In this document: positions 26,314-29,852 of the stretch, piece after piece
Position numbering within the stretch: position 1 is the stretch's first letter
Layout of the letters: each line of letters opens with the position of its first letter
Source of the DNA: Collinsella sp.
Lineage (GTDB): Bacteria > Actinomycetota > Coriobacteriia > Coriobacteriales > Coriobacteriaceae
Reading direction: 5' to 3'
Assembly: GCA_047247485.1 (NCBI GenBank)
Contig: JBKTTM010000006.1
Coordinates: forward strand, 197,246-261,245
Length of the DNA: 64,000 nucleotides
Translations under genes and position numbers: made by a program
The notes under the pieces: model-generated
Told to the model about the DNA's origin: nothing
The model's database searches: none
What the model saw: the letters and a program-made list of their open reading frames with translations, nothing else

Positions 26314-26634
26314 TTACTGGCCAATCCAGTGCTGCGCATAGCTCTTAATGTCCTCGGTAAAACCGTCAAGGTCGTCAAGGGTAATCACGCTGTCGATAAG
26401 CAAATTGGCTATCTCGCGGTGCATTGTGCTGCGGCGAATGTCGTTTGCAATTACGCCTGAGGACAGCTTGTTTCTATTGAGGCTCTCTTCTAGTGCCCAA
26501 AATCTACTGGACGCTTCGCTGTCGCCATTCAGTATCTCAACGTACTGGCCGATGAGCTTTTCCATATAACGTTCTTGCCATTGAGGAAGCATTTTCTTAA
26601 ACAGCTTCCAGTCGCTTTCGGCTACGTCGCGCAT
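26314..26634 (-). CDS. Small hypothetical protein
   Basis: 106-aa ORF MRDVAESDWKLFKKMLPQWQERY...; GGAGGA RBS; lower GC. Confidence 0.6.
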   Translation of the reverse strand: MRDVAESDWKLFKKMLPQWQERYMEKLIGQYVEILNGDSEASSRFWALEESLNRNKLSSGVIANDIRRSTMHREIANLLIDSVITLDDLDGFTEDIKSYAQHWIGQ

Positions 26635-26752
26635 ATGTCCTCCGCTCGTCAAACGGGCTTTTCATTTGCCTTCCATTCTATTTGGTTTTCGCTCGCAAGC
26701 GTGGATGAGAGGCTCTCTTTAGCCTTCGAGATAGGGCTTGAATGGGTCGTAT

Positions 26753-26802
26753 GCCACAAAATGGGCCTATCTACTATGTTTAATTGGATACCCTCAACCA
26801 TG
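26753..26802. repeat. Left arm of the host palindromic element interrupted by IS110
   Basis: 26753-26783 matches the reverse complement of 28441-28471 at 27/31 positions; CAACCATG pairs with CATGGTTG (28422-28429). Confidence 0.8.
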
Positions 26803-26842
26803 CCGGGAAAACAAAAAACAAAACCGACGCTCCTATAAGTTG

Positions 26843-28081
26843 TCAAGAGGCAGTTTGCGGGAGCGCTCTCTCCAATTCGCACAGGAGCTCGTAATACCTC
26901 CTCTCCAGTTTCGTCGACCGCCGTTTCCCCCGTTCCAAGTGCCCGAGTGTGGCTGCGGACAGGCCGAGCTCCGCGGCGGCTTTCTTCTGAGTCACCCGCA
27001 TCGCCTTGCGCATCTTCGCGAGCTCGGGGCCTTCCGGCGCGGCGCCGTCGGGGTTCGGGTCCATGAGCACGTGGTACACCTCCCGCGCTATGTAGCGCTT
27101 CAGGCAGCGGACCGCCTCCCGCCGGGACTTCCCCTCGGAGGTCCGCCTCGCCACGTACCTCCTCGTCCTCTCGTCGTACGCCATGCGCTTGATCGCGATC
27201 TCGTAGAGCGCCCAGTTCGCCTGCCGGTTGCCGCCGCGGTTGAGCCTGTGCCGGTCCGTCTTCCCGCTCGACGCGGGGATCGGGGAGGCGCCGCACATCA
27301 TCGAGAACGCCGCCTCGCCCTTCAGCCTGCCGGGGTTGTCGCCGGCGGCCACGACCAGGGCGGCGGCGGTCGTGGTGCCGCAGCCCTCGACGCCGAGCAG
27401 CGCGGGCGCGTTCGCCTCCAGCAGCGCGCGGATGCGCTCGTCGAGGGACTCGACCTGGCTGCGGGCCTCCTTCCAGACCGCCGCGACGGACCGCAGCGAG
27501 GCCAGCACGCTCTCCTCGAGCGCGTCGCCCGCCTTCCTCCCGCGCGCGAGCAGCGGCATGAGGTCCTTCGGCCGCTCGCGGCCCCTGAACCGCTCCCTCA
27601 GGGCGCTCGGGGCCGTCGTGAGCATCGACTTCGCGCAGGCCACGCAGGACGTGGACGTCGCGACGGCCAGCCTGCGCGCGACGTAGAGCTGGCGCACCGC
27701 CTCGACCCAGCCGTCCTGCGACTTCGGCACGGAGCAGCCCTTCCCGGACGCCGCCTTGCGCGCCGCGCGCTCGGCGTCCAGCGGGTCGCTCTTCCCCTCG
27801 CCGGGCCTCACCTTGTCCCTCTTGGGCCTGAGCACCTCGACGACGTTGTACCCGAGCTCCACGAGCCTCCTCGTCAGCCCGGCCCCGTACGATGCCGTGC
27901 CCTCGACGCCGACGACCATGCAGCTCCCCGGGTCGCCTATCGCCTCCGCCAGCCTGTCGTAGCCCTCGGGGTCGGCCCCGAAGCTCCCGCTCCAGATCTT
28001 CCTCCCGAGGCCGTCGAGCAGGCACAGAACATGCACGTCCTTGTGCGTGTCGACGCCCGCGATGACCGTTTCGCCTTCCAT
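26843..28081 (-). CDS. IS110-family recombinase/transposase with C-terminal XRE-type HTH
   Basis: GVDTHK (D), VGVEGTASYG (E), KSDPLDA (DD), PIPASSG catalytic Ser, RLNRGGNRQAN; tail ELAKMRKAMRVTQKKAAAELGLSAATLGHLERG; GGGGAG RBS. Confidence 0.93.
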   Translation of the reverse strand: MEGETVIAGVDTHKDVHVLCLLDGLGRKIWSGSFGADPEGYDRLAEAIGDPGSCMVVGVEGTASYGAGLTRRLVELGYNVVEVLRPKRDKVRPGEGKSDPLDAERAARKAASGKGCSVPKSQDGWVEAVRQLYVARRLAVATSTSCVACAKSMLTTAPSALRERFRGRERPKDLMPLLARGRKAGDALEESVLASLRSVAAVWKEARSQVESLDERIRALLEANAPALLGVEGCGTTTAAALVVAAGDNPGRLKGEAAFSMMCGASPIPASSGKTDRHRLNRGGNRQANWALYEIAIKRMAYDERTRRYVARRTSEGKSRREAVRCLKRYIAREVYHVLMDPNPDGAAPEGPELAKMRKAMRVTQKKAAAELGLSAATLGHLERGKRRSTKLERRYYELLCELERALPQTAS

Positions 28082-28099
28082 TTTCGCTCCCCTCGGTCT

Positions 28100-28370
28100 G
28101 CCGCCTGCTCCGCGCCCGGGTCTCCCAGACATTGCACTGACGGGAGCGCTACAATCCAATTGGCTTGTCCGATTGTCCGCGCTCATGCTCCTATTAGGTC
28201 ATGGCAGGACTCCGGGACGCGGATGCCGGGGCGAGACAGGTCGGATTTGAGGACGGCCGAAGAGGCGTCAGCAGGTCAGTGGGTCATCGTCCCGGCATTC
28301 AGCATCAGGGTAGCGCTGCGACGCGGAAATCGCGCGCCGTTGCCGCGCCCCGCAGTGCCCGCTTCCCCCG
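28100..28370 (-). ncRNA. Predicted IS110 bridge RNA (5' stem, target-binding loop about 28223-28298, donor-binding loop about 28125-28204)
   Basis: Two stem-internal loop-stem domains whose loop segments match the IS ends and the flanking target; RNA ends not determined. Confidence 0.78.
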
Positions 28371-28421
28371 AGAACAATTATCAGTGCAGGTAGAAGGCCT
28401 GTCGATTTTCGAAAAGGCGGT

Positions 28422-28471
28422 CATGGTTGGCCCCATCGAGTTAAACGTAGTAGATGGCCCCATTTCGTGGC
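28422..28471. repeat. Right arm of the host palindromic element interrupted by IS110
   Basis: Inverted complement of 26753-26802. Confidence 0.8.
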
Positions 28472-28523
28472 GGACCATCAAACGAACGCCGATGCTTGTG
28501 CTGTAGCCGCTCCGATCATACGT

Positions 28524-28592
28524 AAGTTGCGGTGGAATAGTTCCTAGATTCAGCCATTTGCGGGCTAAGCAGGAACTATTTCACCGCAACTG
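28524..28592. repeat. 69-bp palindromic repeat, family B, copy 2
   Basis: AAGTTGCGGTGGAATAGTTCC...GGAACTATTTCACCGCAACTG. Confidence 0.85.
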
Positions 28593-28652
28593 AATTTCAG
28601 GCCAGGCACCCGCAGCAAGAAGACGAATAACCTCGGCGAGTATGTAAACGCA

Positions 28653-28749
28653 GGGCCCTCCGACCCCGCCCGACGATTTCGATTGGCGACCTTTGACGGA
28701 GTCAAGGGAGGAGCCAAATCGAAATACGTCGGGCGGGGTCGGAGGGCCC
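28653..28749. repeat. Long rod-like inverted repeat downstream of pfkA
   Basis: GGGCCCTCCGACCCCGCCCGACG...CGTCGGGCGGGGTCGGAGGGCCC with further inner pairing. Confidence 0.8.
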
Positions 28750-28772
28750 GATGGGATGAATTTCGGCTGAGG

Positions 28773-29852
28773 CTATTCGTCGCCGAAGCTGATGCCCAAC
28801 GCCTTGGCCTCGCGCACCAGATCGCTCTGGGGGTCGACAAACTTGAGCTTGCCGGCGACCTCCTCGAGCGGCATGTGGCACATCTTGCCGTCGCGCAGGG
28901 CGATCATGTAGCCAAACTCGCCGCGCAGGCAGCCAAGCGCGGCTTCGACGCCGCACTGGGTCGCAAAGATGCGGTCCTGAGCATCGGGTTGGCCGCCGCG
29001 CTGCGTGTGGCCGGGGATGGCGACGCGGGTCTCGCGACCGGTCTTGGCCTCGATCTCCTTGGCGATGTCGTACACGATTGACGGGCTCGTGCGCTCGGCG
29101 AGCTTCTTCTTGTACTCCTTCTTGGACAGCGCCGCGTCCTCCTTGGAGATAGCGCCCTCGGCGACGGCCACGATGGTAAAGCGGCTGCCGGTCTCCATGC
29201 GATGCTCGATGGTCTTGATGACGTTATCCATGTCGTAGGGGATCTCGGGAATCAAGATGACATCCGCGCCGCCCGCGACGCCGGCGTACAGCGGGATCCA
29301 GCCAACCTTGTGGCCCATGATCTCGATAACGAATACGCGCCCATGGCTCGAAGCGGTGGTGTGAATGTCGTCGATGCATTTGGTGGCGACGTCGATGGCG
29401 CTCGTAAAGCCAAACGTCATCTCGGTGCCCCAGGTGTCGTTATCGATGGTCTTGGGCAGAGCGATAACGTTGAGGCCCTCTTCGCGCAGGCGGTTGGCGG
29501 TCTTGGTGGAGCCGTTGCCGCCCAGCATAAACAGGCAGTCGAGCTGCAGCTTGTGATAGGTGTGGACCATCGCCGGCACCTTCTCGACGCCGTCGGCCTC
29601 GGGAGTGTCCAGACGCTTGAACGGCGTGCGGCTCGTGCCAAGGATGGTGCCGCCGCGGGTGAGGATGCCGCTAAAATCGGCGGGCGTCATGACGCGGAAC
29701 CTGCTGTAGATAAGGCCTTGGTAGCCGTCCTCAAAACCGTAGATCTCGATAGGTTCTTCGCTATTGGTCATGAGCGTTTTGACGATGCCGCGCATGGTGG
29801 CGTTGAGCGCTTGGCAGTCGCCGCCACTAGTAAGAAGACCAATCCTAAGCAT
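28773..29852 (-). CDS. pfkA: 6-phosphofructokinase
   Basis: LTSGGD, GGTILGTSR, PKTIDND, EIMGH and GHTQRGG motifs. Confidence 0.93.
   Translation of the reverse strand: MLRIGLLTSGGDCQALNATMRGIVKTLMTNSEEPIEIYGFEDGYQGLIYSRFRVMTPADFSGILTRGGTILGTSRTPFKRLDTPEADGVEKVPAMVHTYHKLQLDCLFMLGGNGSTKTANRLREEGLNVIALPKTIDNDTWGTEMTFGFTSAIDVATKCIDDIHTTASSHGRVFVIEIMGHKVGWIPLYAGVAGGADVILIPEIPYDMDNVIKTIEHRMETGSRFTIVAVAEGAISKEDAALSKKEYKKKLAERTSPSIVYDIAKEIEAKTGRETRVAIPGHTQRGGQPDAQDRIFATQCGVEAALGCLRGEFGYMIALRDGKMCHMPLEEVAGKLKFVDPQSDLVREAKALGISFGDE

What the first reader, a model, noticed from the sequence alone, without database searches (positions are those of the whole stretch)
28100..28387. Bridge RNA of an IS110 element with guide segments matching its own ends and its target
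Seen (minus strand, upstream of the transposase): domain 1 has outer stem ATGCCGGG/CCCGGCAT, left loop CCACTGACCTGCT, inner stem GACG..CGTC and right loop CTCAAATCCGACCT. Domain 2 has outer stem CCATGAC/GTCTGG, left loop CTAATAGGAGCAT, inner stem GAGCGC..ACAATC/GATTGT..GCGCTC and right loop CCGTCAGTGCAAT. The reconstructed circle junction TTATAGGA-GC-ACTGA is matched by ATAGGAGCA (28186-28194) and complemented by TCAGTGC (28134-28140). The reconstructed empty site TCTACCT-GC-GTCGGTTTT is matched by ACCTGC (28271-28276) and complemented at 8/9 by AAATCCGAC (28240-28248). Known: IS110 elements such as IS621 encode bispecific RNAs with target- and donor-binding loops. Inference: this is an RNA-programmable recombinase with a GC core (IS621 uses CT). 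The right target guide does not appear to pair with the core, which differs from IS621.
Basis: partly seen in the sequence, partly recalled or inferred. Interest (0 to 1): 0.92.

Follow-up and report, generated by a model that had tools for sequence, protein, structure and literature searches.

The report
IS110 bridge RNA, one-base shared core

Summary
The region is the two-loop bridge RNA of an IS110-family element (window 26826-28385, minus strand; 10 near-identical copies in this genome).

- Orthologous empty sites read ACCTGC|GGTTT at several independent loci.
- Target (..TGC|) and donor (..GTC|) share only the C at the crossover.

In IS621 numbering, the 3' half of the target loop is complementary to donor positions 7-9 plus the right target. 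The 3' half of the donor loop is complementary to target positions 7-9 plus the element's left end. Position 8 therefore behaves as a handshake base, not as a shared core base.

This pattern holds across relatives:
- 13 elements examined by hand;
- 22 distinct RNAs recovered with covariance models, from several phyla. Donor position 8 is T in 17 of 17; target position 8 is T in 1 of 22.

Guides covary with their flanks. Expression, circle formation and activity are untested.

Verdict: a member of a known kind, with a modest variant in core logic.

The parts
26826..28385 (-). Inserted IS110-family element, 1560 nt. It runs ACTGATAATTG... (left end, at 28385) to ...TATAGGAGCGTC (right end, at 26826). 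One base is ambiguous: the C at 28386 or the C at 26826.
   Evidence: There are 10 copies in this genome, 99.9-100% identical. Filled and empty sites were compared at several loci.
28386..28394 (-). Left target, t1-t9 = TCTACCTGC. Only ACCTGC (t4-t9) matches the left target guide at this repeat-borne site.
   Evidence: ACCTGC is present at 9 of 10 left junctions in this genome (the tenth reads ACCAGC) and at 12 of 12 left junctions read in relatives.
26820..26825 (-). Right target, GGTTTT.
   Evidence: GGTTT follows ...GCGTC in 9 of 10 copies in this genome (the tenth has GATTT) and in 18 of 18 right ends read in relatives.
28223..28298 (-). Target-binding domain of the bridge RNA: outer stem ATGCCGGG.CGA / TCG.CCCGGCAT, a closing GAC/GUC helix, the internal loop, and the inner hairpin GACGCC..GGCCGTC.
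   Evidence: Covariance model R1 scores 69.2 bits. The outer-stem sequences differ between relatives while the pairing is kept.
28271..28279 (-). Left target guide, CUGACCUGC. It has the same sense as target t1-t9 and so would pair with the bottom strand.
   Evidence: It matches 9 of 9 at the copy at C6:918779 and 8 at C6:181542. The guide covaries with the left target in relatives: 82 of 104 positions against a permutation mean of 31 and maximum of 61.
28240..28248 (-). 3' half of the target loop, AAAUCC + G + A + C. AAAUCC is the right target guide for GGTTTT, with one U:T mismatch or bulge. GAC is complementary to donor positions 9, 8 and 7 (C, T, G).
28125..28204 (-). Donor-binding domain: outer stem CCA.GAC / GUCUGG, the internal loop, and the inner stems GAGCGC / GCGCUC and ACAAUC / GAUUGU.
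   Evidence: Model R2 scores 86.2 bits. RNAalifold finds compensatory changes in the outer and inner stems.
28187..28194 (-). Left donor guide core, AUAGGAGC. It has the same sense as the right-end bases ATAGGAGC, which stop 3 nt before the crossover.
   Evidence: The motif is conserved both in the RNA and in the right end of relatives.
28131..28140 (-). 3' half of the donor loop, UCAGU + G + C + A + AU. UCAGU is the right donor guide for ACTGA. GCA is complementary to TARGET positions 9, 8 and 7 (C, G, T).
26843..28081 (-). Recombinase gene, 412 aa: DEDD RuvC-like domain, Tnp domain with a conserved SSG serine, and a C-terminal extension.
   Evidence: Pfam PF01548 (E 1.6e-18) and PF02371 (E 5.7e-16). 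The protein aligns with the ISCro4 and IS621 recombinase chains. Invariant D11, E60, D99, D102 and S271/S272.
26915..27031 (-). C-terminal XRE-type helix-turn-helix, residues about 351-389.
   Evidence: Pfam HTH_3 at 26.7 bits (cut-off 23) and HTH_31. It is also present in 4 of 5 of the closer relatives tested above or near the cut-off, and absent in 3 of 3 shorter relatives.
26841..26846 (-). TTGACA in the right end: the presumed -35 of a promoter that would be completed when the ends are joined.
   Evidence: 15 nt of right end follow it. Adding ACT from the left end gives an 18-nt spacer to GATAAT. A TTGAC-type hexamer is conserved in relatives.
28377..28405 (-). Promoter-like site at the integrated copy: TCGACA (in the flanking repeat), a 17-nt spacer, then GATAAT (in the left end, 28382-28377).
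   Evidence: 10 of 12 matches; 2 sites were found against 0.1 expected in shuffles.
28422..28471 (-). Left arm of the palindromic repeat that carries the target. Its partner arm is at 26753-26802.
   Evidence: I1: 50 nt, 78% complementary. The same repeat occurs without the element at C6:2260860-2261070 and in relatives.

Best explanation
What it is. Window 28121-28300 (minus strand) encodes the bridge RNA of an IS110-family insertion sequence that occupies 26826-28385.

Proposed pairing scheme, in the numbering published for IS621 (positions 1-9 left of the cut, 10 onward to the right):
- The target is ..ACCTGC|GGTTTT.
- The donor, once the ends are joined, would have ...TATAGGAGCGTC on the left of the cut and ACTGATAAT... 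on the right.
- The 5' halves of the two internal loops (CUGACCUGC and AUAGGAGC) have the sense of the left target and the left donor. They would pair with the bottom strands.
- The 3' halves pair with the top strands of the right target (GGTTTT) and the right donor (ACTGA).

Proposed mechanism.
- Top strands are cut after C9 and exchanged.
- After exchange, the target loop's G-A-C finds the incoming donor bases C9, T8 and G7. The donor loop's G-C-A finds the incoming target bases C9, G8 and T7.
- Each loop thus gains two base pairs, which drives insertion forward.
- Only C9 is common to donor and target. Position 8, a shared 'core' base in IS621, is here a third handshake-type position, together with position 7.

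Shown by sequence: the boundaries, the complementarities, their covariation across relatives, and the uniform junction type.

Inferred by homology with IS621: the cut position, strand order, transcription, protein-RNA binding and catalysis.
For: Boundaries.
- Empty orthologous sites read ACCTGC|GGTTT. This is seen at the window's own site in 3 relatives and at the site of copy C6:181542 in 4 relatives.
- Empty sites in this genome at C6:1830237, 704525, 2058563 and 2260950 are filled in relatives L044, L037, L080 and L041.
In contrast, 13 unoccupied ACCTGCGGTTT motifs exist in this genome against about 1.2 expected from composition.

Family.
- PF01548 and PF02371 are present.
- The protein aligns with the solved ISCro4 and IS621 recombinases, E 5e-6 and 2e-4.
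- The DEDD residues and the serine are invariant in 9 aligned relatives.

RNA architecture.
- It is conserved in 13 elements with different stem sequences.
- Covariance models of each domain find both, adjacent and upstream of the gene, in most of 62 sources.

Guide covariation in the 13 elements (20000 permutations each).
- Left guide against left target: 82 of 104 positions. Permutation mean 31, maximum 61, observed value reached 0 times.
- Right guide against right target: 53 of 60. Permutation mean 20.4, maximum 38, reached 0 times.

Positions 7/8/9 in the 13 elements.
- 3' half of the target loop against the donor: 12/12, 11/12, 12/12. Against its own target: 1/13, 2/13, 13/13.
- 3' half of the donor loop against the target: 11/13, 11/13, 13/13. 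Against its own donor: 2/12, 0/12, 12/12.

Extended set: 22 distinct RNAs, 17 of them with a right end.
- Donor position 8 is T in 17 of 17. Target position 8 is T in 1 of 22.
- Donor loop against target: 20/22, 18/22, 21/22. Against donor: 4/17, 0/17, 17/17.
- Target loop against donor: 17/17, 16/17, 17/17. Against target: 4/22, 2/22, 21/22.

Promoter. With the corrected ends the spacer from the right-end TTGACA to the left-end GATAAT is 18 nt (15 + 3).

Literature. The published IS621 mechanism (top strands cut 3' of position 9, post-exchange pairing of the right guides with the incoming core and positions 6-7) was read in passages of PMC11208158 and PMC13626964.
Against: - No transcript, circle or activity was observed. 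No listed run is on record as RNA, and the laid contigs show no end-to-end joint.
- Rfam has no match in the region.
- At the window's own site the left guide matches only 6 nt (ACCTGC), which alone is not beyond chance (525 of 3000 shuffles). The right guide carries one mismatch or bulge.
- The left donor guide does not pair with donor positions 7 and 9, so the bottom-strand side of the donor scheme is less clear than in IS621.
- The extended count kept only 22 of 42 distinct RNAs. The other 20, including the window's own copy at its repeat site, were dropped because my automatic left-end call did not agree with the left guide at t0-t6. Some of those may be elements that break the rule rather than parsing failures.
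- Relatives are kin, so the permutation figures overstate independence.
- The alignments used for the extended set were fitted to my own models.
Confidence: 0.85

Rival explanations
1. The element ends at ...TATAGGA, a GC dinucleotide core is duplicated on both sides, the target is TCTACCT-GC-GTCGGTTTT, and the circle junction is ATAGGA-GC-ACTGA.
For: ATAGGAGCA and GCACTGA would each match that junction contiguously.
Against: - The predicted empty site was found in 0 of 61 genus genomes, and this genome has no exact copy.
- Empty orthologous sites at several loci lack GTC.
- Relatives with quite different right targets all keep ...GC-N-TC at the right end, so these bases travel with the element.
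- The -35 to -10 spacer would be 15 nt instead of 18.
Confidence: 0.03
2. The core is still a dinucleotide, but donor (TC) and target (NC) tolerate a mismatch at its first base. Both strands are exchanged as in the original IS621 model. The resulting heteroduplex is then resolved by repair or replication, always in favour of the top strand.
For: - This gives the same junction sequences as the best explanation.
- IS621 products are expected to carry mismatches next to the core after bottom-strand exchange (PMC13626964 methods passage; PMC11208158 discussion passage).
Against: - All 22 left junctions read (10 in this genome, 12 in relatives) are of the top-strand type ..[TA]GC|ACTGA. None carries the donor's CGTC before ACTGA. 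Random segregation would give both types.
- The loops are complementary to the non-cognate base at position 8 and not to the cognate one: 0 of 17 for the donor loop. This looks selected rather than merely tolerated.
- Two preprints report mainly top-strand transfer (10.1101/2025.10.25.684509, passages; 10.64898/2026.08.31.748434, abstract).
Confidence: 0.1
3. The structured upstream region is only a leader that regulates transposase translation or stability. On this view the matches to the element ends reflect shared end sequence rather than guide function.
For: - No expression or binding data were obtained here.
- The longest open reading frame (447 aa, from 28186) overlaps the donor domain.
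- Small RNAs modulating recombinase expression have been discussed for another family member, as noted in PMC11208160 (passage).
Against: - Loop segments change together with unrelated flanking chromosomal DNA in relatives, while the stems keep their pairing.
- Homologues of the recombinase have been shown to need such RNAs (PMC11208160 and PMC11187229, passages).
Confidence: 0.02

Closest known systems
IS621 bridge RNA / recombinase of Escherichia coli (PMC11208160; structures 8WT6-8WT9, PMC11208158)
   Same: - The recombinase has a DEDD domain and a serine Tnp domain.
- The left end is long and encodes a 5' hairpin followed by a target-binding and then a donor-binding internal loop.
- The 5' half of each loop has the sense of the left arm, and the 3' half is complementary to the right arm.
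- The 3' halves carry bases complementary to the non-cognate DNA upstream of the cut (handshake).
- Insertion is into palindromic repeats.
- A -35 sits in the right end and a -10 in the left end.
   Different: - The proteins are only distantly alike (phmmer E 2e-4).
- IS621 donor and target share CT at positions 8-9, and all four guides pair with it (passage). Here only C9 is shared, and position 8 is T in donors and mostly A or G in targets.
- The left donor guide stops 3 nt before the cut.
- There is an extra C-terminal helix-turn-helix.
ISCro4 / IS622 bridge recombinases used in human cells (PDB 9T56; bioRxiv 10.1101/2025.05.14.653916)
   Same: Best-scoring solved relative (E 5.3e-6). Same two-loop guide scheme with handshake guides.
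   Different: Design rules in that preprint require identical cores and non-matching positions 6-7 (passages). The clade described here naturally uses non-identical position 8.
ISPpu10 of Pseudomonas putida (bioRxiv 10.64898/2026.03.19.712850, abstract only)
   Same: An IS110 element whose insertions fall in copies of one conserved intergenic sequence with a stem-loop. Here 7 of 10 copies sit at the centre of a palindromic repeat of about 150 nt.
   Different: Whether the repeat's structure contributes to recognition here is untested. Three of 10 copies lie in unique DNA that has better guide matches.
IS1111-type seekRNA elements (PMC11187229)
   Same: Same transposase superfamily, and an RNA-guided choice of target.
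   Different: In IS1111 elements the RNA is downstream of the gene and the order of the strand-matching segments is reversed (passages). Here it is upstream, as in the IS110 type.
CazIS110-1 of Caloranaerobacter azorensis (bioRxiv 10.1101/2025.10.25.684509)
   Same: It is reported to excise and integrate mainly through the top strand (passages). That would explain why all junctions here are of the top-strand type.
   Different: No sequence comparison was made here. The core logic of that element was not examined; the word 'core' does not occur in its text.

Membership tests
IS110 family (IS110 group) insertion sequence | Recombinase with an N-terminal DEDD RuvC-like domain (PF01548) and a C-terminal Tnp domain (PF02371) carrying a catalytic serine. 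| tested here: met
   Both domains score above their curated cut-offs. D11, E60, D99, D102 and S271/S272-G273 are invariant in 9 relatives. The SG motif aligns with that of ISCro4.
IS110 family (IS110 group) insertion sequence | Long non-coding left end upstream of the gene, short right end, no long terminal inverted repeats, and site-specific insertion without a multi-base target duplication. | tested here: met
   The left end is 304 nt and the right end 17 nt after the stop codon. All 10 copies in this genome are at ..ACC[TA]GC|G[GA]TTT. Only one base is ambiguous between the junctions.
Bridge RNA (IS621 type) | An RNA with two stem / internal-loop / hairpin units, the first variable and the second conserved among relatives. 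| tested here: met
   Constrained folds of 13 elements. In the alignments the first loop is variable and the second carries the invariant ATAGGAGC. Models R1 and R2 recover both units next to each other in relatives.
Bridge RNA (IS621 type) | [quoted passage not shown] | tested here: met
   Permutation tests.
Bridge RNA (IS621 type) | Donor and target share a core dinucleotide that is paired by all four guide segments. | tested here: not met
   Only C9 is shared. Position 8 is the same in target and donor in 1 of 17 elements. The donor loop pairs its own donor's position 8 in 0 of 17, and the target loop pairs its own target's position 8 in 2 of 22.
Bridge RNA (IS621 type) | Handshake bases: the 3' loop halves are complementary to the non-cognate DNA just upstream of the core. 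| tested here: met
   At position 7, the target loop matches the donor in 17 of 17 and the donor loop matches the target in 20 of 22.
Bridge RNA (IS621 type) | The RNA is transcribed, bound by the recombinase and required for recombination. | not testable with these tools
   No run on record as RNA holds the stretch. Only assembled contigs could be laid.
Bridge RNA (IS621 type) | A promoter is reconstituted across the joined ends. | tested here: inconclusive
   Sequence only. TTGACA, 15 nt of right end plus 3 nt of left end, then GATAAT. Right ends of relatives keep a TTGAC-type hexamer 12-16 nt before the cut. No circle was observed.

The most novel reading that the evidence does not exclude
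A widespread clade of IS110-type bridge recombinases needs only one nucleotide (C9) in common between donor and target. The clade is seen here in records titled Collinsella, Arthrobacter, Streptomyces, Nonomuraea, Dehalococcoidia and others. Position 8, treated as an obligatorily shared core base in the IS621 paradigm, is programmed independently in these elements: T in the donor, any base in the target. It is read, like positions 6-7 of IS621, only after strand exchange by the other loop. If this is true and not yet described, the 'matching core' rule used to choose editable site pairs is a property of the IS621 branch and not of the mechanism. A subclade, which includes this element, also adds a C-terminal XRE-type DNA-binding domain whose role is unknown; it might recognise the repeat or the joined-end promoter.
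Probability: 0.4. Interest if true: 0.65.

Novelty: new variant of a known kind. Interest (0 to 1): 0.48.

Why it matters
Bridge RNAs of IS110 elements have been known since 2024 and are predicted for most family members, so finding one more is not news in itself.

What may matter is the corrected anatomy.
- In this element and its relatives, natural donor and target sites do not share a core dinucleotide.
- The bases that IS621 uses to read a shared core are here split: each loop reads the other partner's position 8.
- Current design rules for bridge editing demand identical cores in the two sites. A natural system that demands only one shared base would widen the choice of site pairs.
- It would also give a clean natural test of how handshake pairing sets direction.

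The case is also a caution for boundary calling. A fortuitous GC inside the right end produced a plausible but wrong core.

Tried and rejected
- Rfam scan of 26500-28800 (E up to 1). The only hits were microRNA and snoRNA models far below their gathering scores, and none lies on the bridge RNA.
- Unconstrained folding of 28100-28387 pairs the guide segments with each other and with the left-end terminus, so it is not informative about architecture.
- A MAFFT plus RNAalifold run on the whole 13-sequence region misaligned the short subgroup and returned only 13 pairs. It was replaced by per-domain alignments and covariance models.
- My first anchor-based parser failed on 45 of 47 distant loci and was abandoned.
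- Sequencing runs: 24 were listed, all kept as assembled contigs, and no holder is on record as RNA.
- Four runs were laid, two of them labelled metagenomic RNA-Seq. They carry the element in pieces. Contigs stop near 26815-26820 and 28391-28394, and no end-to-end (circle) joint was seen. The two 'skip' joints in one metagenome have short sides and were not interpreted.
- Earlier findings of this scan were not open to the session.
- Literature searches for a one-base or non-identical core gave nothing. 'IS110' + 'handshake' + 'core' returned 7 papers, none making the point in the passages I read. A six-term search including 'non-identical', 'mismatched core' and 'single-nucleotide core' returned 0 papers. 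Supplementary tables of PMC11208160, which may list cores per element, were not read.
- A search for a helix-turn-helix fused to IS110 transposases ('IS110', 'helix-turn-helix', 'DEDD', 'C-terminal') returned 3 unrelated papers.
- I first read the repeat-type site as differing from the left guide by a single G:T wobble. The table showed that it differs at three positions (t1-t3), and that idea was dropped.

Full report
THE OBSERVATION

- ATAGGAGCA lies at 28186-28194, TCAGTGC at 28134-28140, ACCTGC at 28271-28276 and AAATCCGAC at 28240-28248.
- The quoted stems are there. The outer stem of the first domain appears as an inverted repeat (28223-28234 / 28287-28298).
- When the four guide segments are kept single-stranded, the RNA folds into two units of outer stem, internal loop and hairpin.
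- Within this one window the matches are only moderately beyond chance. The summed longest matches are reached in 5 of 3000 shuffles, and two of the four matches are unremarkable on their own.

THE ELEMENT AND ITS TRUE ENDS

The protein carries PF01548 and PF02371. It aligns, distantly, with the solved ISCro4 and IS621 recombinases. The DEDD residues and an SSG serine motif are invariant among nine relatives.

The genome holds 10 copies, 99.9-100% identical. All have ..ACC[TA]GC before ACTGATAATTG and ...CTTATAGGA-GCGTC-G[GA]TTT at the other end.

Empty sites say otherwise.
- At the window's own locus, three related genomes read ...CTTCTACCTGC-GGTTTTATTTT.
- At the locus of copy C6:181542, which is unique DNA, four relatives read ...GACCTGC-GGTTTCATC.
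- Four sites that are empty in this genome are filled in relatives, and one site is the reverse case.
- ACCTGCGGTTT occurs unoccupied 13 times in this genome against about 1.2 expected from composition, mostly in the same palindromic repeat.

The inserted DNA is therefore 1560 nt, from ACTGA... to ...GGAGCGTC (26826-28385). The two junctions share only one C.

Seven of the 10 copies sit at the centre of a repeat of about 150 nt with 50-nt inverted arms.

READING THE LOOPS WITH THE CORRECTED ENDS

The published IS621 mechanism was read in passages.
- Top strands are cut 3' of position 9 and exchanged.
- The right guides stay on positions 10-14. They then pair with the incoming core (8-9) and, through 'handshake' bases, with positions 6-7 of the other DNA.
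- Pairing of the handshake bases with the cognate DNA before exchange blocks the reaction.

In the element studied here:
- The target is t1-9 ..CTGACCTGC (best sites) or ..TCTACCTGC (repeat sites), followed by GGTTTT.
- The donor is d1-9 AGGAGCGTC, followed by ACTGATAAT.
- The 3' half of the target loop, read as DNA sense, is GTC|GGATTT. This is donor 7-9 plus the right target.
- The 3' half of the donor loop, read the same way, is TGC|ACTGA. This is target 7-9 plus the right donor.
- Each loop matches its own DNA only at C9.
- The left target guide CUGACCUGC covers t1-9. The left donor guide AUAGGAGC covers the bases up to d6.

It is set for the donor's T8, not for the target's G8.

RELATIVES

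Protein searches in 401 genomes of the class found the same element in many genomes of the genus, and also more distant elements at 43-54% identity. After fetching more copies I tabulated 13 distinct elements.

All of them share the following:
- a left end beginning with a -10-like box;
- a first loop of variable sequence;
- a second loop with the invariant AUAGGAGC;
- a right end of the form TTGAC(A)-N-ATAGGAGC-N-TC.

The guides track their flanks. For example:
- CACAUUCCGC is paired with AACATTCCGC;
- AUCUACCUGC is paired with [AT]TCTACCTGC;
- ACAACCUGAC is paired with TCAACCTGAC;
- AGCGGUAGAC is paired with TACGGTAGAC.

Permutation of the pairings never reached the observed match counts (20000 permutations each).
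- Left guide: 82 of 104, maximum 61.
- Right guide: 53 of 60, maximum 38.

At positions 7, 8 and 9:
- the target loop matches the donor 12/12, 11/12, 12/12, and its own target 1/13, 2/13, 13/13;
- the donor loop matches the target 11/13, 11/13, 13/13, and its own donor 2/12, 0/12, 12/12.

Donor position 7 varies (G, A or T), and the target loop changes with it (GAC, GAU, GAA).

To widen the sample I did the following.
- I built covariance models of each domain.
- I searched 62 sources, among them 47 loci from other phyla obtained with a protein profile.
- This gave 49 adjacent pairs of the two domains, of which 42 were distinct RNAs with a left-end call.
- I kept 22 of these, those in which the left flank agreed with the left guide at t0-t6. 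The 20 dropped include the window's own copy, whose repeat site matches only t4-t9.

In the 22 kept RNAs, 17 of which have a right end:
- donor position 8 is T in 17 of 17;
- target position 8 is A 14 times, G 6 times, C once and T once;
- the donor loop matches target 7/8/9 at 20/22, 18/22, 21/22, and its own donor at 4/17, 0/17, 17/17;
- the target loop matches the donor at 17/17, 16/17, 17/17, and its own target at 4/22, 2/22, 21/22.

Caveats: the sequences are related, the alignments were fitted to my models, and the filter used the left guide.

HOW IT MOST LIKELY WORKS

Shown:
- the ends of the element;
- the single shared base;
- the complementarity of each 3' loop half to the product junction rather than to the substrate;
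- the covariation;
- the uniformity of the junctions. All 22 left junctions read are of the top-strand type.

Inferred from IS621:
- the RNA-protein complex pairs the 5' loop halves with the bottom strands and the 3' halves with the top strands;
- it cuts both top strands after C9 and swaps them;
- the two new pairs gained in each loop (positions 8 and 7) pull the reaction towards insertion;
- in the integrated state the same pairs already exist, which should disfavour excision, as reported for wild-type IS621 (passages of PMC13626964).

The uniform junction type fits reports that transfer is mainly of the top strand (passages; abstract).

The corrected ends place the right-end TTGACA 18 nt from the left-end GATAAT once the ends are joined. 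At the integrated window copy, the flanking repeat supplies TCGACA 17 nt upstream of the same GATAAT, so a resident copy might also be transcribed. None of this was seen as RNA.

COMPARISON AND NOVELTY

This is a member of the IS110 family and works like IS621. Bridge RNAs were predicted for 85.7% of catalogued IS110-group elements (PMC11208160 passage), so the kind is known.

One feature of the IS621 description was tested here and is not met: a core dinucleotide shared by donor and target and paired by all four guides (passage).

Later design rules also require identical cores (passages). My searches found no paper stating a one-base or non-identical core. I did not read the supplementary tables, and figures are not held, so prior description cannot be excluded.

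A second departure is a C-terminal XRE-type helix-turn-helix.
- In this element HTH_3 scores 26.7 bits against a cut-off of 23.
- The domain is also present in the closer relatives and absent in three shorter ones.

VERDICT

- The identification as a bridge RNA is right.
- The GC core and both reconstructed junctions are wrong.
- The corrected anatomy is a modest but potentially useful variant of a known system.

Noticed in passing
window 26753-26802 and 28422-28471; own genome C6:2260860-2261070: A palindromic repeat family of about 150 nt, with 50-nt inverted arms around a centre that reads ...TTTTCGAAAATCGNCA..CTACCTGC|GGTTTT.... It carries most targets of the element and also occurs unoccupied in this genome and in relatives.
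   Followed up: partly
window 28377-28405 (minus strand): The repeat flank contributes TCGACA 17 nt upstream of the element's GATAAT. This forms a promoter-like site (10 of 12) at the integrated copy, not only at joined ends.
   Followed up: no
window 26915-27031 (minus strand); L055, L061, L047, L049: The recombinase has a C-terminal XRE-type helix-turn-helix. The closer relatives (about 400-420 aa) share it, and the shorter relatives (about 350 aa) lack it. Its function is unknown.
   Followed up: partly
L055, L056, L059 (genus relatives): A second IS110 element in the same genus, 51-52% identical in protein. It has the same donor ends and donor loop as the window element but a different target loop (ACAUUCCGC / GUUUCCU), and it sits at ACATTCCGC|AGGACGC inside another long hairpin repeat.
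   Followed up: partly
L051 and L071; L072 and L074: Relatives inserted inside IS3-type transposase genes at conserved coding motifs. In L051 and L071 the site is ..CTGAAG-NNC|GAGTT.., which encodes LK-x-E-F. In L072 and L074 the site is next to an HSD..G.QY-like motif. L051's left guide no longer matches its own site at t8-t9.
   Followed up: no
L072 and L074, upstream of the recombinase gene: Two tandem target-loop-like hairpins precede the donor loop. The target-domain model hits L074 twice, at 45.2 and 24.5 bits.
   Followed up: no
L124, L140, L144, L115: Extra copies of the target and donor domains lie downstream of the recombinase gene in these distant loci. They may be tandem or neighbouring elements.
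   Followed up: no
It is not relevant to the true target.
   Followed up: no
window 28525-28591 and 28648-28756: Two further long hairpins lie just beyond the element's left flank: 21-nt arms at 95% complementarity, and a hairpin of about 100 nt. Both gave weak hits to microRNA models in Rfam, far below the gathering scores.
   Followed up: no
L042 (relative, 95% identical element): A single A-to-G change in the left donor guide (AUAGGGGC) while the right end is unchanged. This would give an rG:dT wobble with the bottom strand.
   Followed up: no
L043 (G320:C2) and G384:C1:1563072-1564104: Copies of the element with an in-frame TAG or split into two pieces. They are probably decayed copies.
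   Followed up: no
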